Origin: a virus
Taxonomy: Duplodnaviria; Heunggongvirae; Uroviricota; Caudoviricetes
DNA length: 19,577 bases
Reading direction: 5' to 3' (one strand)
IMG/VR virus record: IMGVR_UViG_2671180460_000010
Coordinates: 1-19,577 of that record
A model generated the notes under the pieces. The model searched no databases. It saw only the letters and a program-made list of their open reading frames with translations, and was not told where the DNA came from. The position numbers were made by a program, and so were the translations under genes. Positions 1,658 through 15,511 of the stretch are shown here, one piece after another. How positions within the stretch are numbered: position 1 is the stretch's first letter; each line of letters begins with the position of its first letter.

Positions 1658-4114
1658 TTAAAAATCAGCCTGATTCGGGATCAGTTTTTGCCAGATAGCT
1701 GAAACGTATTTTGCCTGGTGGCGGGCATCATCCAGTGCATTATGGCGCTCACCTTCGAATGGAATAGCCGTTCTGGCATCGAAGTCTATAGCTTTCCCCA
1801 GCTCAACGATTGTGCGTACATCGCGATCGTTGTAGTAACGCCACGGGCAGGGGATCCCCTGCCGTTCGTATGAACGGCGCAAAATCGTGTTGTCGAAGTT
1901 GGCTCCATTTCCCCAGACCTGAACAAAAAATTCACCGGAGTTTTCGTCGATAAATTCTCGCAATTGTAACAGTGCATCATCTAACGGGATTTCATCGGTC
2001 ATAATGGCAGATTGCGCTTCGCGTGATTGCTTCAGCCACCATTTAATGGTGTCCCGATCAATGACTCCGCCAGCAGTTTCCAGATCGATAGTCTTACTAA
2101 ATTCCGGTCCCATATCTCCGGTTTGCGGATCGAAAAATATTGCACCTATTGAGATAATCGGGGCATCAGGATTTTTTCCCATGGTTTCGAGGTCGATCAT
2201 TAGATGGTCACACGTCCTGCTGGTGGATGTGATTTCGTGATGACCGTTCACCTTAATTGAGTGATCTGCCGCCTCGCCAGTTTCATTATCGCTGGCGTGG
2301 TCCTGAGCGCTGCCAGCATTCTCCTTGTGTGGATGTTCAGCGCCTTCCATTTCCTCCGGATCATTTTCCTGAACTTCAACCTGATTCTCTTCATCGAATG
2401 TTTCCAGGTATGTTGCGTCGCCCATCACCGCGCCACAATCAGGGAAGTTGCCGCTGCCGGTCTGACCGCAGACGGTGCAAGCTTTTTCCGGTTCCTGTTG
2501 CGCTGCTGGTTCATGTTGTTTCGTTTCTGGCTCGTTTTGTAACGCATTTGGGCTGTTTTGTTCCGCTTTCTGGTCGTTCTGTTCCGTTTCTTGCTGGTTC
2601 TGATTCACTGAATCGCGGGTTTCAATCCCCTTCACCCATTTCGGATCATTCGGGTCGCTAATCCCTGCAACAAATTCACCGCGAGAGGCCGCAAGCAACT
2701 TATCGGCGTCAGGCTGGCCGATATTGGCTGCCTGCATAATTTTGTTTACTTCGTCAGCGGTAACTTTCACCTGATTAACTGGATCTACCTGTTCCTGAGT
2801 ATCCAGCGATTGCGTGTCCTGGCGATGTTCAGTTGTATCCGGTTCCATTGTTTCAGCCGTTGCCTGTTCATCTGCCAGTACGCCAGACGGTTGCGGTTTT
2901 TCTTCATCATTTTTTTCTTCTTCTGTTTCTTGCCCGGCAGCCAGCTCGCGGTTAACTTCTTCCAGGATATCTTTTTCCGGTGTATGTCGTGCAGCAGTGA
3001 GAGTTTCCTTGCTGGGGTTCTCGTGATCAGTCTCCGTTAAGTAGGCGTTGATATACCCCTGAAGGCGTCCCGGGTAATGATAAAATTCAGGGTGTGCGCT
3101 CCGGATAAGCGCAAAAATAGCGGCGCGGGAATAATCCAGGATACCCGGGATTGCGCGAAGTGCTGCGGACCATTCTTTGAACGGGCTTTCTTTCTTCCGG
3201 ACGACTTCTTTTGCGCGACGATAAACGCTGCCCGGAATTTCATAAATATTAAAATCCATCGGAAGTGTGGCCGCTGCAATCTCCACATCCAGCGTATCGA
3301 AGGTGTGTACTAAATTAGGATTGCGATCGGTTTTGTTCCCTCCACCGGCATTAGCACCGGAAGCCGTGCGGGTAATGCGTGAAACACGATTTCCTTTCAT
3401 CCACTCTTTTGTCAGCAGACCGCGATCGGTGTAGTCAGCGCCCAGGTATGCTTCGAAAAAAGCAGTCATCAGTCCCAGGTCTGAATTACCAGGATTAGGG
3501 AAAACTTTGTCCGTGTCACGAACCAGTTTGTGGAGATCGCGAATTTCCAGCGGTTCGAGTTGCGCTGCTTTATTTGAGATGGCCAGAGCGGTAACGGCGG
3601 GAAGTTTTTCATCCTGTGCGTTATGTAATGCGCGCAGTTCGTCCCGCGAAACGTGTGTGATCGGTTTTTCGCTGCCGTGCTGTGCCAGCCATCGAACAGG
3701 CAGAATCTGACCTGAAACCGGCAGGAGCATGTTCTCCTCAATCTCCGTCATGTCTTCGCCGTTGACGTTGGTATTGTCAGTGCTGGCTGGTTTGTCCTGC
3801 GCAGAGTGAGAGGTCTCAATAAATACCATTGTTATACCATCTTCCCCGCCTTTTTCGTATCGATTGCAGAATTCGGTATCAAACACGCCTTCCGGAGGAA
3901 GGTCATTCACAATGGGTAAATGGACGCGAACAGGTTTTTTAAAATCCTCTTCGTCAAATCCGGCATCGTCCATTGCGACAACACCGCGTGATATTGCAAC
4001 CGATAATTTTTTTGCTGTGCGCCAGTAAAAACCGCCTTTAATCCCAAGGCGTTTTCTGACTTTGTCATTTTTGGCTTCGTAATATAGTGCAATTTCTTCT
4101 TTATCAGCGCTCAT
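1658..4114 (-). CDS. Large phage protein with C-terminal DnaQ-like DEDDh 3'-5' exonuclease domain (often annotated exodeoxyribonuclease VIII-like); long acidic/Gln-rich central linker
   Basis: 818-aa ORF with GAGG RBS 7 nt upstream of the ATG at 4114. The C-terminal ~180 aa carry Exo I (MIDLETMG), Exo II ([12 protein letters not shown]) and Exo III (HNALDDARH) motifs. The central ~250 aa are low-complexity E/Q/D/T-rich. Position matches the recombination-gene slot of lambdoid phages. Confidence 0.75.
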
Positions 4115-4191: not shown

Positions 4192-4395
4192 TTACGGTGC
4201 TGTTTTAAGTCCTGCCGGGACTTCGTTATTATCCATGCGAATAACTTTATCGACCGGATAACAGTTACCGGGAATTTTCTGTTCATCTGCGGCAGCCATG
4301 CATTCTTTCATTGAGCTGTATACGCCAGTAACCATGTCAACTGGTTCACCGGAAACAAGAAAAACCGTCAGAACAAGTGCAAATGTGGTATTCAT
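4192..4395 (-). CDS. Small hypothetical protein with N-terminal signal-peptide-like hydrophobic segment
   Basis: Internal Met start (MNTTFALVLTVFLVSGEP...) preceded by AGGA. Its ATG overlaps the stop of the upstream gene in an ATGA arrangement (4392..4395), suggesting translational coupling. 67 aa with 3 Cys. Confidence 0.45.
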   Translation of the reverse strand: MNTTFALVLTVFLVSGEPVDMVTGVYSSMKECMAAADEQKIPGNCYPVDKVIRMDNNEVPAGLKTAP

Positions 4396-4580
4396 TGCCA
4401 GTATCCTTTTTGCATCAGGCGTGAACGGGCCATCATTGAAACAATGCAAACCTTATTTAATGAATCCGGCTCATGCTTTATCTGGTTAATGGCATCCTCA
4501 ATAAAAGTTTTATCGCCAGTGATAACGCCAATTTCAAAACGAGTTTCAGGCGTAGTGGAATTGAGTAATAACGTTTCCAT
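4392..4580 (-). CDS. Small hypothetical protein (62 aa)
   Basis: Start METLLLNSTTPETRFEIG with GAGGA RBS upstream; ATGA overlap with the next gene. One arm of a 19-bp inverted repeat lies just upstream of its RBS. Confidence 0.45.
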   Translation of the reverse strand: METLLLNSTTPETRFEIGVITGDKTFIEDAINQIKHEPDSLNKVCIVSMMARSRLMQKGYWQ

Positions 4581-5081
4581 TATCGCGTCCTCAACAATGA
4601 ATTTTGTGATGCGGTGCCTGGTGCCTCCAGGTGACGTTAACCAGTTAACAATTAACGCCGGATACAGGGAACCCATAAACACCCGATACGGGGGAACTAA
4701 TCGCTTTTTAACTGTTCCGCGTGCGCTGAGCCGCATTCACCGCATCACAAAATTCACTTTAAAAATGGCGGACATCAGCCAGCAATTAAACTGATGCCGC
4801 CAAAGGTCAATACTCAACATGGGTTGTTGCAGCGGGGTTGTCACTCAGGCGTATGGTCAACCTGACAACCCGGTGCTACCAATGGGGGTAAGGATAACCC
4901 CGCCATACTTACCGCCGCGCCATTTCGCGGATTGCCACAACCGGAAGCGCACGGTCGAAGAAATCTAACGACAAGCCTTCTAAGGAAAAGAAACCTTCGC
5001 TGTGCGCTTTCGTGTTGTGTGCCTGCTTTTAACCACATCAGGCGAGGTGGTTTCCGTCATTCCCCAACGACAAGAAATTTG

Positions 5082-5087
5082 TATAAT
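5082..5087 (+). promoter_or_regulatory. Candidate sigma70 -10 element (TG-adjacent TATAAT) for the 5119..5637 gene
   Basis: ttTGTATAATcc lies 31 nt upstream of the ATG at 5119. The -35 is weak (ttcccc region), consistent with an extended -10 type promoter. Confidence 0.4.
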
Positions 5088-5118
5088 CCGGATACCCCAA
5101 CAACAAAGAGAGTTAAGA

Positions 5119-5637
5119 ATGCTATCTGGAATAACTTCATCAATAACGGCAATTAAAGTCTCGATTGATTTATTACAGGTAATACTTGATGCAAAAAGCC
5201 AATCTGAACGTGAAAAGGCTGTCTACGAAATGCGTCGCCAACTGGCAGACTTACAAATACAGAACGCAGAGCTAGCGAAAACGCTCGCGCTTCAGTACGA
5301 GGAAATACTCTTGCTTAAGCAAAAATGTCATGAAATTGACGAGCGTAATCGAAAACTTGAATGCTATACGATACACAAAACTGGTTTTGGGCATTTTGTC
5401 TATGCTTTCAGGAACAGCCTCGACGAAGAAGACACATGTTTTCACTATGCCTGTCCCAATTGCTATCAGCATGGTGTAATAGCAATACTTCAACCTGTTG
5501 AAATTGGTGAGCATGATAAGTTCCATATTTCTAAATGCCTGAAATGTGATTCGCGCTTTAAATTTGAACGCAATGATGACTATATACCGCCCCCATCTGA
5601 AGAAGAGATAGGTAGAGCATTGAGCAGCAATCCGTAG
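5119..5637 (+). CDS. Hypothetical coiled-coil protein with C-terminal CxxC...CxxC zinc-ribbon-like motif (172 aa)
   Basis: Start at internal Met (MLSGITSS) with GAGAG RBS. Predicted heptad-rich central segment (QLADLQIQNAELAKTLALQYEEILLLKQKCHEIDERNRKLE). C-terminus has CPNC...(22 aa)...CLKC. Opposite strand to all neighbours, with its own promoter. Confidence 0.6.
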   Translation: MLSGITSSITAIKVSIDLLQVILDAKSQSEREKAVYEMRRQLADLQIQNAELAKTLALQYEEILLLKQKCHEIDERNRKLECYTIHKTGFGHFVYAFRNSLDEEDTCFHYACPNCYQHGVIAILQPVEIGEHDKFHISKCLKCDSRFKFERNDDYIPPPSEEEIGRALSSNP

Positions 5638-5799
5638 GTTATTGCTGTTGTGGATATCCAGATTGTTAAAGAGCATGCCGGAAGGTTATCCGTGTCCGGC
5701 GCACGACCACACGTAGCAGCGTGTTGGTCTCCATTTTTAATTCACCCCTTAATGGAGGATAAAATAATCGTGGTGCTGGTCGGCTCGGTCCCGCAGGTG

Positions 5800-6447
5800 T
5801 TACCCTTTAAACCAGTCAATCCAGAGCGGATAGTGTTCAGCATAAATATAGCTATACACATCCAGGTTGTATTTGCGGTCTGTCCTTAGCAGGTCGCAAA
5901 TACAGGCCGCAGCTTCCAGGGCAGCAGCTTTGTTGCTGAATAACCATGTAGCAACATTCCGGCGATTATCTGTATCCCACTCTTTTGTGAGGGCTGACAC
6001 CACGAAGGAGCCGTTGGTGTTGCCATCAAATACTTCCGTTTCCAGATTTTTAAGTAATGCCTGGTGAATTTTTGCCAGGTATTCAGTCGGAATTTCGCCA
6101 CGAATTCGGATAAGGTTGTCATAAACAAACATGTTCCCCGCATATGGCGATTTTTCTTTCTTTTGTTCACTGGCAGGCTGGTCAATTTCGTCTTCGGTTG
6201 GTTTCGTATTGATGTTTTGCGTTATCGTTTCTGCAATGGGCTTTGCTTTATTTTCTACACAATGATTGTTTGTGAACGAATCTGAATACAGTCCGGTAAA
6301 AGAATTGCGGACATGATTTGATAAATTTCTGATGAACACTTTATCTACTAATATCATTGGGTTCCGCGCCAGTTGCGAGCGAATCACATCAGCGGCCATT
6401 TCCTGTATTGAAATTGGTAAATCTTTAAATTCCATAGTCAACCTCAT
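5800..6447 (-). CDS. Hypothetical protein (215 aa), second gene of the leftward early operon
   Basis: Long ORF with GAGG RBS. Start is 6447 (MRLT) or 6435 (MEFKDL). No motif I can assign to a known family. Confidence 0.6.
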   Translation of the reverse strand: MRLTMEFKDLPISIQEMAADVIRSQLARNPMILVDKVFIRNLSNHVRNSFTGLYSDSFTNNHCVENKAKPIAETITQNINTKPTEDEIDQPASEQKKEKSPYAGNMFVYDNLIRIRGEIPTEYLAKIHQALLKNLETEVFDGNTNGSFVVSALTKEWDTDNRRNVATWLFSNKAAALEAAACICDLLRTDRKYNLDVYSYIYAEHYPLWIDWFKG

Positions 6448-6459
6448 CAGTCGGTGGTT

Positions 6460-6666
6460 TTAAATCACTCGCGAAACGTTTAATGCCGCGCTTTTTGCCA
6501 GAGCGGTAATATCCTGCGTCACTGACGCCAGTGTTTCAGAGAGGCGCTCTTTGTGATCAGTGGCCTGCTTCAGGTCATTAATGGCGCGTATCTTCCCGCG
6601 CATCCACTCATAAAGTTCATCATCGGTATAGCCTGGCGCGATGATGACGGGTTCTCGTTTCTGCAT
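6460..6666 (-). CDS. Hypothetical protein (68 aa), first gene downstream of the pL-like promoter
   Basis: ORF 12 nt upstream of the 215-aa gene on the same strand, about 180 nt downstream of a strong leftward promoter. Not Arg-rich, so not an obvious lambda N-type antiterminator. Confidence 0.5.
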   Translation of the reverse strand: MQKREPVIIAPGYTDDELYEWMRGKIRAINDLKQATDHKERLSETLASVTQDITALAKSAALNVSRVI

Positions 6667-6854: not shown

Positions 6855-6898
6855 ACTATAGGTAATGCCTAATTATTTGTCAATAGGCTATGCCTAAT
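6855..6898 (-). promoter_or_regulatory. pL-like early-left promoter with overlapping operator half-sites (OL-like)
   Basis: On the minus strand: TTGACA (plus coords 6878..6883), 17-nt spacer, TATAGT (6855..6860). The -35 is embedded in ATTAGGCatagcctATT, and further GCCTAAT half-sites occur at about 6864..6876 and 6913..6925. Confidence 0.55.
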
Positions 6899-6991: not shown

Positions 6992-7468
6992 TTAAGTACC
7001 TGTCTTGGTGATATTCTGGCTTTTCCGTTTTGATTCTTGATTTTTCAAATAGTTACCTACCTTCATTTCCATTGCGGCAATGTAGGCGCGAACGTCATGA
7101 TCAACCCAACTAGGCTCCGTAGCATTTCCAGATAAGAGGAAAGCTACAATTGCTCTTTTTTCATCAGAGGCGGCTTGATAAAGGCTGTTTATGTCTAAGA
7201 GTTCACTTTTTGTATCTGAAGTGGATGGGGTTGGTATGGGGTATTCGTTAAGCCCCCAATGCTCTGGACCAACCACATCAGAAAAGAAACGCCATAGTTC
7301 TGGAAGTTTGTCTTTACTTATCGAACCTTTCTTAATCCAGTCATGGATTGATGGTGGTTGGACTTTGAAATGACGTGCGATCTCCGCCTTTGATTTGACG
7401 GCCCCTGATGCAATTTTTTTGTTAATGGCCTGCTCTATCGCTCGGCCTAAGTCTTTACCACTAAGCAT
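6992..7468 (-). CDS. Prophage repressor, HTH (XRE-like) family, RacR-like; no C-terminal S24 peptidase domain evident
   Basis: 158-aa ORF with GGAGA RBS. N-terminal HTH-like segment (KSKAEIARHFKVQPPSIHDWIKKG). Sits between mirrored promoters/operators and is divergent from a Cro-like gene. Size and arrangement match the Rac racR-ydaS-ydaT layout. Confidence 0.7.
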   Translation of the reverse strand: MLSGKDLGRAIEQAINKKIASGAVKSKAEIARHFKVQPPSIHDWIKKGSISKDKLPELWRFFSDVVGPEHWGLNEYPIPTPSTSDTKSELLDINSLYQAASDEKRAIVAFLLSGNATEPSWVDHDVRAYIAAMEMKVGNYLKNQESKRKSQNITKTGT

Positions 7469-7520: not shown

Positions 7521-7570
7521 ATTAGGCATAGCCTATTGACAATGATATTAGGCGCAGCCTAATATCATTG
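7521..7570 (+). promoter_or_regulatory. pR-like early-right promoter with operator palindromes (OR-like)
   Basis: -35 TTGACA (7536..7541), 18-nt spacer, -10 TAATAT (7560..7565). A 31-bp perfect palindrome CAATGATATTAGGC-gca-GCCTAATATCATTG (7540..7570) overlaps the promoter. A second site ATTAGGCatagcctATTGACAA (7521..7542) is the exact reverse complement of 6877..6898. Confidence 0.6.
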
Positions 7571-7592
7571 TGTGTTTTTTGGAGTTCACTCG

Positions 7593-14122: not shown

Positions 14123-14344
14123 GAAGGAAACAAACAGAAACAACAATTGCCGTTATCTGTTGCCACCAATGACAAGTAAACGTATCTCAGGCGAGCGCAT
14201 TGCGCCGTTCTGACGCGGATACATTAGCCTGGGCAGAAGGTTCTGGCAATAAAAAATAGCGTTTTCTTATCGGTGTCGGTAAGATTGTTGCGGGTGCTTG
14301 AGGCTGTCTGCCTCGGGCATGCCACTGTAAGGCAGACAGAGAAA

Positions 14345-14447
14345 AGCCCCAGTTAACATCACGCGTCCTGCAAGACGCTTAACATTAATCTGAGGCTCAA
14401 TCCATGCTGAACACATGTAGGTTAGCCTCTTACGTGCCGAAAGGCAA
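14345..14447 (-). ncRNA. Putative Sok-like antisense RNA and its promoter (type I antitoxin)
   Basis: Minus-strand promoter: -35 TTGCCT (plus coords 14442..14447), 17-nt spacer, -10 TAACCT (14419..14424). The architecture mirrors the R1 sok promoter, which sits antisense to the hok leader. The 3' end is not defined. Confidence 0.35.
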
Positions 14448-14460
14448 GGAGAAGCAGGCT

Positions 14461-14616
14461 ATGAAGCAGCAAAAGGCGATGTTAATCGCCCTGATCGTCA
14501 TCTGTTTAACCGTCATAGTGACGGCACTGGTAACGAGGAAAGACCTCTGCGAGGTACGAATCCGAACCGGCCAGACGGAGGTCGCTGTCTTCACAGCTTA
14601 CGAATCTGAGGAGTAA
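14461..14616 (+). CDS. hok: Hok/Gef-family type I toxin (51 aa)
   Basis: MKQQKAMLIALIVICLTVIVTALVTRKDLCEVRIRTGQTEVAVFTAYESEE is a near-match to the Hok/Gef family (HokD/RelF-like). The leader GGTGCTTGAGGCTGTCTGCC...AAGGAGAAG parallels the hok mRNA fold-back elements. The in-frame upstream extension from 14404 may correspond to a mok-like translational coupling frame. Confidence 0.85.
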   Translation: MKQQKAMLIALIVICLTVIVTALVTRKDLCEVRIRTGQTEVAVFTAYESEE

Positions 14617-15007: not shown

Positions 15008-15025
15008 TGATAGGTATTGTGCTCT

Positions 15026-15511
15026 ATGGCTGAGATTGTTGAAGGAGTGCACTACCTCTCGGTTGATGATCTTACTGAAATCAATCGCCTTTTAATTGAG
15101 CTTCAAACACCAGATGAACCTGTTGGTGTGCTGAGTGTTGATAATTTAAGTTCTTCTCAGTCTCGTCCCAGTATGGTTCGATGGTATGAGCAAACCAACG
15201 ACATGTTTGTACTGGCATCGGTATTGATTGAAAGTCTGATTCAGAATCATCCATTTGCCAATGCAAACAAGCGCACAGCAATGATGGCTGGTGCGGTTTT
15301 TTTATTGTTAAATGGATACGAATTAACCGCGCCAGGCGATGAAGTTGTGGAGATGGCTGAGGGGCTGGCCTGTAAAATTTATACACGAGAAGAGCTTGAA
15401 AATTGGTTGTGTTATTGGTCTCGTGCGTATGACAGTCGGGAATTATGTAAAACAGGCGCAACTATTGTTTTGTATGAAACGATCAAGCTTAAAATAGAAC
15501 AGCAAAACTAA
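15026..15511 (+). CDS. doc: Doc/Fic-family toxin (death-on-curing-like)
   Basis: Motif HPFANANKRTAMMAGAVFLLLNGY matches the Doc signature HxFx(D/N)ANKR. An alternative TTG start lies at 15017. Confidence 0.8.
   Translation: MAEIVEGVHYLSVDDLTEINRLLIELQTPDEPVGVLSVDNLSSSQSRPSMVRWYEQTNDMFVLASVLIESLIQNHPFANANKRTAMMAGAVFLLLNGYELTAPGDEVVEMAEGLACKIYTREELENWLCYWSRAYDSRELCKTGATIVLYETIKLKIEQQN

What the first reader, a model, noticed from the sequence alone, without database searches (positions are those of the whole stretch)
5082..5637. Stand-alone coiled-coil / zinc-ribbon gene with its own promoter in the sieB-like slot
The 172-aa ORF is the only rightward gene in an otherwise leftward early-left block. 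It has its own TG-TATAAT promoter and pairs a predicted coiled coil with a C-terminal CxxC-(22)-CxxC ribbon. In lambdoid phages this position, between the recombination genes and the repressor, holds superinfection-exclusion or abortive-infection genes such as sieB or rexAB, which are expressed in the lysogen independently of pL. I cannot match the protein to SieB or any family I know, so it is a candidate novel single-gene exclusion or defence factor.
Basis: partly seen in the sequence, partly recalled or inferred. Interest (0 to 1): 0.6.

Follow-up and report, generated by a model that had tools for sequence, protein, structure and literature searches.

The report
Divergent Rip1 pore-forming anti-phage gene

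Summary
The ORF is real: 5119..5637 (+), 172 aa. It is the only + strand gene between the integrase and the RacR-type repressor of an ompW-integrated lambdoid prophage. It occupies the same position as sieB in the K-12 Rac prophage.

It is not an orphan. It belongs to phrog_1244 (E 7.5e-32). It matches the solved "ring interacting pore 1" (Rip1) of phage HK446 (PDB 9OOX), with E 6e-9 for the single sequence and E 8e-33 for a clade profile. An AlphaFold model finds only 9OOX in the PDB (Foldseek probability 1.0). All family-invariant residues are kept, including both CxxC pairs.

HK446 Rip1 and its relative HkaP also lie on the opposite strand, next to N or cIII. Pseudomonas relatives lie next to the large terminase gene.

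The exact allele is rare: 3 of 5426 complete E. coli genomes, one of them with a nonsense mutation. A Salmonella copy is 89% identical, with dN/dS of 0.33.

A perfect TATAAT is present and conserved across different cargo alleles. However, it has no -35 and the TG is one base off the canonical extended -10. Expression was not tested.

Verdict: a new, divergent member of a known defence family. The defence-gene idea is supported; the novelty claim is not.

The parts
5119..5637 (+). Rip1-family gene, 172 aa plus stop
   Evidence: Translation. phrog_1244, E 7.5e-32. PDB 9oox Rip1, E 6.1e-9. Clade profile against 9oox, E 8e-33. Foldseek top hits 9oox_L/M, probability 1.0. dN/dS 0.33 against the Salmonella allele.
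5122..5190 (+). N-terminal hydrophobic/amphipathic helix (residues 2-24); by homology, the membrane-active end of the protein
   Evidence: AF2 helix H2-24. Kyte-Doolittle 18-residue maximum is 1.42 at residues 5-22, below transmembrane grade and similar to HK446 Rip1 at 1.12. The review describes the Rip1 N-terminal part as an amphipathic helix (PMC13434031).
5200..5361 (+). Long central alpha-helix (residues 28-81)
   Evidence: AF2 helix H28-81, pLDDT 84-93. Aligns with HK446 Rip1 residues 40-92. Heptad pattern is weak.
5365..5568 (+). C-terminal beta-rich zinc-ribbon domain (residues 83-150) with C112xxC115 and C140xxC143; by homology, the domain that contacts the phage ring
   Evidence: AF2 strands. 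Family-conserved Y83, G91, Y95, H109, C112, C115, L124, Q125, C140 and C143. The review says the C-terminal half contacts the small-terminase ring.
5569..5634 (+). Clade-specific C-terminal tail (residues 151-172, DDYIPPPSEEEIGRALSSNP)
   Evidence: Present in the window, Salmonella, RM11911, PhiR29, P0030 and P0031 proteins. Absent from HK446 Rip1. Low pLDDT.
5080..5087 (+). TGTATAAT: perfect -10 hexamer (5082-5087) with an abutting TG; candidate own promoter
   Evidence: Read directly from the sequence. Not called by the consensus scan because there is no -35. Invariant upstream of four different cargo alleles and in Salmonella. Not beyond chance on its own.
5105..5112 (+). Shine-Dalgarno-like AAAGAGAG, 6 nt before the ATG
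   Evidence: Read directly from the sequence. The leader is unstructured.
5677..5742 (+). Two hairpins (5677-5700 and 5705-5729), the second followed by UCCAUUUUUAAUU; terminator-like end of the unit, in the convergent gap before the 215-aa ORF
   Evidence: Centroid fold. Not called by the simple scan. HK620 hkaP also carries an annotated terminator.
4996..5066 (.). Conserved block upstream of the slot, containing the inverted repeat ACCAC-N11-GTGGT
   Evidence: Found in 1241 of 5426 complete E. coli genomes. Recognisable upstream of sieB in Rac. The stems never vary, so there is no covariation evidence.
4766..4812 (-). DicF-like sRNA (context, left flank)
   Evidence: Rfam RF00039, 34.7 bits, E 4e-5, below the gathering score of 48. 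Terminator-like site at 4798-4771.
4392..4736 (-). dicB (context, left flank)
   Evidence: PF05358, E 3e-28.
5800..6447 (-). 215-aa protein of unknown function (phrog_2151), convergent with the gene; not the repressor
6855..6883 (-). Strong sigma-70-like promoter (TTGACA-17-TATAGT) of the leftward operon; its transcript would be antisense to the Rip1-like gene
   Evidence: 11 of 12 matches.
6992..7468 (-). RacR-type repressor (context, right flank)
   Evidence: NCBIfam NF049929, 246.5 bits, cut-off 200.

Best explanation
The gene encodes a divergent member of the Rip1 ('ring interacting pore 1') family, a single-protein, prophage-encoded abortive-infection defence.

Proposed working, by homology:
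1. In the lysogen the protein is made from its own small transcription unit, on the strand opposite the repressed early-left operon. On its own it is harmless.
2. A superinfecting phage reaches late gene expression and produces ring-shaped oligomers (small terminase, portal).
3. The C-terminal zinc-ribbon domain docks around the ring. This templates a roughly 12-subunit Rip1 ring.
4. The N-terminal amphipathic helices then form a pore in the inner membrane.
5. The cell loses membrane integrity before progeny mature.

Shown here: family membership by sequence, fold and conserved residues; the same slot and strand logic as the characterised HK446 Rip1; and purifying selection.

Inferred: expression in the lysogen, the identity of the trigger, pore formation and anti-phage activity of this particular allele.
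For: **Homology and fold**
- phmmer against the PDB gives 9oox_L 'ring interacting pore 1 (Rip1)', E 6.1e-9, query 29-151 against chain 40-159 of 164.
- A profile of 27 relatives that excludes the HK446 clade hits the same chain at E 8e-33, 116 bits, over 139 positions.
- BLASTP against the 164-aa E. coli Rip1 P0008 gives E 5e-12, 23% identity over 150 aa.
- The AF2 model has pLDDT 79. Its only significant PDB matches are 9oox_L/M, 'Escherichia phage HK446 Rip1 in complex with phage T6 small terminase', at E 4.5e-7 and 7.9e-7, probability 1.00, TM 0.58-0.71 on the target.
- phrog_1244 contains the window protein (7.5e-32), HK446 Rip1 (2e-53), JBD30 gp30 (3e-61) and HkaP (8e-51).
- Family-conserved Y83, G91, Y95, H109, C112, C115, L124, Q125, C140 and C143 are all present.
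- The window protein is 20-25% identical to HK446 Rip1 and to JBD30 gp30. Those two are only 29% identical to each other, so it lies within the family's span.

**Context**
- HK446 Rip1 is on the + strand between an anti-restriction gene and N, both on the - strand.
- HkaP is on the + strand between cIII and HkaQ/N.
- JBD30 gp30 is on the opposite strand between a DNA-binding protein and TerL.
- The Salmonella allele sits in the same slot.

**Other**
- dN/dS is 0.33.
- The mechanism is taken from the review PMC13434031, section 5, and from PMC13601566.
Against: - No experiment on this allele exists or could be run here.
- Identity to characterised members is low (20-28%). Surface residues of the C-terminal domain are not conserved, so the trigger may differ.
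- The promoter is sequence-only, lacks a -35 and is not called by the consensus scan.
- One of the three E. coli genomes carrying the allele has a Q68 nonsense mutation, so the gene is dispensable and can decay.
- The window holds no terminase or portal gene. How the prophage avoids triggering its own copy cannot be examined.
- The primary paper is not in the held library. Mechanistic details come from a review and the PDB title.
Confidence: 0.75

Rival explanations
1. A Rip1 homologue with a changed trigger or output. It has the same fold and is still a lysogen-expressed exclusion factor, but it senses an oligomeric phage protein other than small terminase or portal, or it acts without forming a lytic pore (for example by sequestering the ring and blocking packaging).
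For: - Only the structural core is conserved, and identity to studied members is 20-28%.
- There is a clade-specific C-terminal tail, PPPSEEEIGRAL, absent from HK446 Rip1.
- Even the two studied systems differ in trigger: portal for Pseudomonas phages and small terminase for E. coli phages.
- The window protein scores lowest of the tested members against phrog_1244, 111 bits against 172-206.
Against: - The N-terminal hydrophobic helix and the whole domain order are retained.
- No feature argues positively for a different output.
Confidence: 0.15
2. A decaying or silent cargo gene of a cryptic prophage with no current function.
For: - The allele is in only 3 of 5426 complete E. coli genomes, and one copy carries a nonsense codon.
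- The promoter has no -35.
- The slot often carries other cargo or none.
Against: - The ORF is intact with every family-invariant residue.
- dN/dS is 0.33 against the Salmonella allele.
- The -10, leader and SD-like sequence are conserved across genera.
Confidence: 0.06
3. A SieB/Rex-type exclusion protein or a zinc-ribbon DNA-binding regulator, that is, a function suggested by position or by the CxxC motif alone.
For: - Same slot and orientation as sieB in Rac.
- CxxC...CxxC ribbons often bind nucleic acid.
- Weak sub-threshold NCBIfam hit to the ECs_2282 CxxC family, E 0.016, 15 bits against a cut-off of 37.
Against: - No hit to PF14163 SieB, whereas Rac SieB hits it at 1.5e-31.
- 14% identity to SieB in the alignment.
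- No transmembrane-grade segment.
- It is a single gene, unlike rexAB.
- The strong, full-length Rip1 homology accounts for the ribbon.
Confidence: 0.03

Closest known systems
Rip1 of Escherichia phage HK446 (gp37, YP_007111990; PDB 9OOX, complex with T6 small terminase)
   Same: - Full-length homology: E 6e-9 single sequence, 8e-33 profile.
- Same fold (Foldseek probability 1.0).
- Same order of N-terminal hydrophobic helix, long helix and CxxC...CxxC beta domain.
- Similar size, 164 against 172 aa.
- Stand-alone gene on the strand opposite the early-left operon of a lambdoid phage, in the sieB/N-proximal slot.
   Different: - Only 20-24% identity.
- HK446 has an 8-residue Gly/Ala-rich insertion in the N-terminal helix region.
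- HK446 lacks the 20-residue C-terminal tail.
- The neighbours differ: N and an anti-restriction gene in HK446, dicB/DicF and ydf-like genes here.
Rip1-like proteins of P. aeruginosa Mu-like (Casadabanvirus) phages, e.g. JBD30 gp30, DMS3, D3112 orf25
   Same: - Same family (phrog_1244).
- tblastn E 1e-7 to 1e-8, about 28% identity over 91% of the query.
- Opposite-strand single gene.
- The position between a putative small terminase and TerL fits the review's description of the original P. aeruginosa Rip1. That identification is my inference.
   Different: - Located in the late (packaging) region rather than the early-left region.
- Different host.
- Different C-terminal tail.
HkaP of phages HK620, HK629 and HK630
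   Same: - Same family: 28% identity, E 2e-11; phrog_1244 at 8e-51.
- + strand gene between cIII and HkaQ/N.
- An annotated terminator follows it in HK620.
   Different: - No experimental work on HkaP was found in the held library.
- Different tail sequence.
SieB (Rac, lambda, P22; PF14163)
   Same: Same genomic slot and same opposite-strand orientation in Rac. It is also a prophage-expressed abortive exclusion gene (function from established knowledge).
   Different: - No sequence relationship.
- In my alignment SieB has a hydrophobic N-terminal region, while the window protein has no transmembrane-grade segment.
- Different, poorly understood mechanism.
Other sensors of phage packaging proteins (Avs1-3 sensing large terminase/portal; TerI sensing small terminase)
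   Same: These also detect conserved late phage proteins by direct binding and trigger cell death (PMC13601566).
   Different: Avs proteins are large STAND NTPases with separate effector domains. Rip1-type proteins are about 165 aa, with sensor and effector in one chain.

Membership tests
Rip1 (ring interacting pore 1) family / phrog_1244 | Significant full-length sequence homology to an experimentally characterised Rip1 | tested here: met
   9oox_L at E 6.1e-9. Clade profile at E 8e-33 over 139 positions. BLASTP against P0008 at E 5e-12. phrog_1244 at E 7.5e-32, shared with HK446 Rip1 and JBD30 gp30.
Rip1 (ring interacting pore 1) family / phrog_1244 | Rip1 fold: long helix followed by a beta-rich zinc-ribbon domain | tested here: met
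   AF2 model with pLDDT 79. Foldseek against the PDB gives only 9oox_L/M as significant, probability 1.00, 120-125 aligned columns of 124-126 modelled residues, TM 0.58-0.71.
Rip1 (ring interacting pore 1) family / phrog_1244 | Family-invariant residues (two CxxC pairs, Y83, G91, Y95, H109, L124-Q125) | tested here: met
   All are present. Conservation across 151 family representatives is 85-100%.
Rip1 (ring interacting pore 1) family / phrog_1244 | N-terminal amphipathic helix that forms the pore | tested here: inconclusive
   A helix at residues 2-24 is predicted. Its hydrophobicity and hydrophobic moment resemble HK446 Rip1. Membrane insertion cannot be computed here.
Rip1 (ring interacting pore 1) family / phrog_1244 | Stand-alone single gene in a prophage, transcribed against its neighbours | tested here: met
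   Window layout. The same arrangement is seen in HK446, HK630, PhiR29, JBD30 and Salmonella.
Rip1 (ring interacting pore 1) family / phrog_1244 | Assembles as a roughly 12-mer ring around oligomeric phage small terminase or portal and permeabilises membranes | not testable with these tools
   Needs biochemistry or cryo-EM. Known for HK446 Rip1 with T6 small terminase (PDB 9OOX title; review).
Rip1 (ring interacting pore 1) family / phrog_1244 | Confers phage resistance; non-toxic without infection | not testable with these tools
   Needs plating and growth assays.
SieB (PF14163) | Match to the SieB profile | tested here: not met
   No Pfam hit for the window protein. The Rac SieB positive control hits PF14163 at 1.5e-31. 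Identity in the alignment is 14%.
RexAB | Two-gene system (RexA sensor plus RexB membrane channel) adjacent to cI | tested here: not met
   It is a single gene. Its neighbours are phrog_2151 and phrog_1744 proteins on the other strand. There was no PADLOC hit.

The most novel reading that the evidence does not exclude
The dicB-to-ydf/racR junction of these lambdoid prophages may be a cassette-exchange hot spot. In this reading a conserved upstream block (4996-5066, with the ACCAC-N11-GTGGT repeat) and a shared TGTATAAT leader drive interchangeable defence cargo. The window's Rip1 clade, with its extra conserved C-terminal tail, would recognise a class of oligomeric phage protein different from the small terminase and portal triggers described so far.
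Probability: 0.2. Interest if true: 0.5.

Novelty: new member of a known kind. Interest (0 to 1): 0.3.

Why it matters
It gives a mechanistic hypothesis to a gene that RefSeq calls 'hypothetical protein', with a wrong 211-aa start, and that PHROGs calls 'unknown function'. It also shows that the classical sieB slot of Rac/Qin-like E. coli and Salmonella prophages is one of the places where highly diverged Rip1 alleles (about 30% identical to one another) are swapped in and out behind a conserved leader. For phage therapy and host-range prediction, such alleles are candidate determinants of which phages abort in a given strain. It does not open a new kind of biology.

Tried and rejected
- **Pfam:** no family; only DUF641 at E 0.07.
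- **PADLOC 2.0:** no hit. Bona fide HK446 Rip1 and JBD30 gp30 also get no meaningful hit, so the library simply predates the family and the negative result says nothing.
- **NCBIfam:** only sub-threshold coiled-coil and CxxC noise.
- **Word-indexed protein search:** found only near-identical copies. The exhaustive search was needed to reveal 343 family representatives.
- **Primary Rip1 paper** (doi 10.1038/s41586-025-10075-1, PMID 41639445): not held. A broader literature search for HK446/HkaP returned only eukaryotic RIP1 kinase papers.
- **Consensus promoter scan:** does not call the proposed promoter.
- **Rfam inside the ORF:** snoRNA matches at E 0.2-0.27 are chance.
- **Coiled-coil heptad test:** not significant.
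- **Covariation test of the conserved upstream hairpin:** uninformative because the stems never vary.
- **SieB, RexAB and DNA-binding regulator readings:** rejected (see rival explanations).

Full report
**1. Observation**

The window is the left arm of a lambdoid prophage of the type integrated next to ompW in E. coli. Reading leftward genes from left to right:

- integrase, 20-1315
- excisionase-like ORF, 1336-1587
- 818-aa ExoVIII/RNase T-like exonuclease, 1658-4114
- DUF1482, 4192-4449
- dicB, 4392-4736
- sub-threshold DicF-like RNA, 4766-4812
- 215-aa phrog_2151 protein, 5800-6447
- 68-aa phrog_1744 protein, 6460-6666
- RacR-type repressor, 6992-7468 (NF049929, 246 bits)

These are followed by rightward ydaS/cro-like and ydaT/cII-like genes.

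The flagged ORF is ATG 5119 to stop 5637, 172 aa. It is the only credible + strand gene in this block. In K-12 Rac the same position, between kilR/kilS and ydaF/ydaG/racR, is occupied by sieB, also on the opposite strand.

Corrections to the observation:
- The two CxxC pairs (C112/C115 and C140/C143) are separated by 24 residues, not 22.
- The TG abuts TATAAT (TGTATAAT, 5080-5087), rather than being spaced as in TGnTATAAT.
- No -35 hexamer scores better than 3 of 6, and the consensus scan does not report the site.
- The octamer alone is not beyond chance: 2 found, 0.5 expected, and 15 of 200 shuffles reach 2.
- The heptad signal in the long helix is weak.
- RefSeq's 211-aa version starting at GTG 5002 is not supported. 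Family N-termini align on the Met at 5119.

**2. What it is**

Pfam, PADLOC and NCBIfam are silent. PHROGs places the protein full-length in phrog_1244, 'unknown function', at E 7.5e-32.

The decisive result came from the PDB sequence search. The only significant hit is 9oox chain L, 'ring interacting pore 1 (Rip1)', at E 6.1e-9, aligned over residues 29-151 of the query and 40-159 of the 164-residue chain.

An exhaustive HMMER search found 343 cluster representatives at E <= 1e-3. Nearly all are 145-175 aa and match end to end. A profile built from 27 of these, not including the HK446 clade, hits the Rip1 chain at E 8e-33 over 139 positions.

An AlphaFold2 model has mean pLDDT 79. It shows helix 2-24, helix 28-81, a beta-rich domain at 83-150, and a low-confidence tail helix at 161-169. 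Foldseek against the PDB finds exactly two significant matches: chains L and M of 9OOX, 'Cryo-EM structure of the Escherichia phage HK446 Rip1 in complex with the Enterobacteria phage T6 small terminase'. These score E 4.5e-7 and 7.9e-7, probability 1.00, TM 0.58-0.71 normalised to the target. The next hit is at E 0.2.

In a 151-sequence family alignment the residues that define the family are Y83, G91, Y95, H109, C112, C115, L124, Q125, C140 and C143, with 85-100% conservation. All are present in the window protein.

HK446 Rip1, JBD30 gp30, HK630 HkaP and PhiR29 all score 8e-51 to 3e-61 on phrog_1244. That PHROG is therefore the Rip1 family.

The window protein is 20-24% identical to HK446 Rip1, 25% to JBD30 gp30 and 28% to HkaP. 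HK446 Rip1 and JBD30 gp30 are themselves only 29% identical. It is divergent, but within the family's span.

**3. Context in relatives**

- HK446 Rip1 (gp37) lies on the + strand between an anti-restriction gene and N, both on the - strand.
- HkaP of HK630 lies on the + strand between cIII and HkaQ/N.
- The PhiR29 homologue lies on the + strand between yfdP and cI.
- JBD30 gp30 lies against the direction of its neighbours, between a DNA-binding protein (a putative small terminase) and TerL. This matches the review's description of the original P. aeruginosa Rip1.
- A Salmonella enterica prophage carries an 89%-identical allele in the same slot, with ParE/Phd on its left instead of dicB.

Between the E. 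coli and Salmonella alleles, dN/dS is 0.33, from 15 synonymous and 20 non-synonymous differences. The TTGTATAAT, leader and SD-like sequence are conserved.

The exact allele is rare. Three of 5426 complete E. coli genomes carry it: C5, strain 41 and PapRG-04-4. The PapRG copy has a Q68 stop.

The slot itself is variable:
- Other prophages of this type carry Rip1-like alleles only 30-33% identical to this one (TUM9812, RM11911).
- Some carry an unrelated 148-aa phrog_6315 gene.
- Some carry a 66-aa phrog_34441 gene.
- Some carry nothing, and Rac carries SieB.

Upstream, the segment 4996-5105, including TGTATAAT, is nearly invariant in front of four different cargo alleles. Similarity ends a few bases before the start codon. 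A shorter block, 4996-5055, is found in 1241 genomes.

**4. How it most likely works**

According to the review of Patel et al. 2026 (PMC13434031, section 5; also PMC13601566, and PMC12908700):
- Rip1 is a prophage-encoded single protein that is not toxic alone.
- Escaper phages carry mutations in portal (Pseudomonas phages) or small terminase (E. coli phages).
- Cryo-EM shows an 11-mer small-terminase ring surrounded by 12 Rip1 subunits.
- The C-terminal half of Rip1 contacts the ring, and the N-terminal part is an amphipathic helix.
- The assembly has a pore, releases dye from liposomes and makes holes in cells.
- Infected cells therefore lose membrane integrity before phage maturation.

By homology I propose the same for this protein:
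- constitutive low expression in the lysogen from its own unit (-10 at 5082-5087, SD-like 5105-5112, terminator-like hairpins 5677-5742);
- ring-templated oligomerisation through the zinc-ribbon domain (residues 83-150);
- pore formation through the N-terminal helix (residues 2-24), whose hydrophobicity resembles that of HK446 Rip1 and is below transmembrane grade.

The strong leftward promoter at 6883-6855 (TTGACA-17-TATAGT) would transcribe antisense through the gene when the prophage is induced. This might help to silence it during the prophage's own lytic cycle. That is speculation.

Family membership is shown. Expression, trigger, pore formation and defence for this allele are inferred.

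**5. Rivals**

- Same family but a different trigger or output (0.15). Supported by low identity, non-conserved surfaces and a clade-specific C-terminal tail.
- Silent or decaying cargo (0.06). Argued against by the intact invariant residues and dN/dS of 0.33.
- SieB/Rex-like protein or a DNA-binding zinc-ribbon regulator (0.03). The SieB profile test fails while the Rac SieB control passes.

**6. Comparison and novelty**

The protein passes every computable membership criterion for the Rip1 family. The biochemical criteria cannot be tested here. Relative to SieB it is a positional analogue only.

But the family and its mechanism were published in February 2026, and the review states that Rip1 relatives are widespread in proteobacterial prophages. 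This is therefore a new, divergent member of a known kind.

Points of modest added value:
- the correct start codon;
- the link from phrog_1244 and HkaP to Rip1;
- the picture of the dicB/racR junction as a variable cargo slot behind a conserved leader.

Interest: 0.3.

Noticed in passing
window 4996-5066: A roughly 60-nt block (…CGCTTTCGTGTTGTGTGCCTGCTTTTAACCACATCAGGCGAGGTGGT…) lies just upstream of the variable + strand slot. It is present in 1241 of 5426 complete E. coli genomes, and a recognisable version lies upstream of sieB in K-12 Rac. It contains an invariant inverted repeat, ACCAC-N11-GTGGT. Its function is unknown; it could be an operator, an RNA hairpin of the leftward dicF precursor, or a cassette junction. 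No covariation evidence is possible because the stems never vary.
   Followed up: partly
window 5040-5800 and loci L008-L014: The slot between dicB/DicF and the ydf-like genes carries different + strand cargo in different E. coli prophages. These include Rip1-like alleles about 30% identical to each other, a 148-aa phrog_6315 protein, a 66-70-aa phrog_34441 protein, or nothing. Several share the same TGTATAAT leader.
   Followed up: partly
L002 6605-7255 (E. coli PapRG-04-4): This copy of the same allele has an in-frame Q68 stop codon and is annotated as a 106-aa hypothetical protein. It is a recent pseudogene.
   Followed up: yes
window 5002-5118: RefSeq annotates the gene in strain C5 from a GTG 39 codons upstream (211 aa, WP_187655783.1), and another record gives 267 aa. 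Family alignments support the ATG at 5119.
   Followed up: yes
window 4766-4812 (-) and 4561-4777 (-): There is a DicF-like RNA (34.7 bits, below the gathering score of 48, E 4e-5) with a terminator-like hairpin at 4798-4771. There is also a sub-threshold STnc100 match overlapping the 5' part of the dicB ORF. The dicB ORF here is 114 aa, of which only residues 53-114 match the 62-aa DicB domain.
   Followed up: no
window 14292-14466 (+): A sok antitoxin RNA (RF01794, 114 bits) sits beside a small ORF at 14404-14616 that was not examined. Together these would make a hok/sok-type toxin-antitoxin module in the prophage's right arm. A Fic/DOC-domain protein lies at 15017-15511.
   Followed up: no
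window 5800-6447 (-): A 215-aa protein of unknown function (phrog_2151) is convergent with the Rip1-like gene. Its first ~55 residues also match several other PHROGs (1363, 6937, 9419), which suggests a shared N-terminal module with variable C-termini. It co-occurs with this Rip1 allele in C5, PapRG and L017, but not in Salmonella.
   Followed up: no
window 7539-7571 (+): A 15-bp perfect inverted repeat (ACAATGATATTAGGC…GCCTAATATCATTGT) lies between racR and ydaS and overlaps a TTGACA-18-TAATAT promoter-like site. It is probably the RacR/YdaS operator region rather than a terminator.
   Followed up: no
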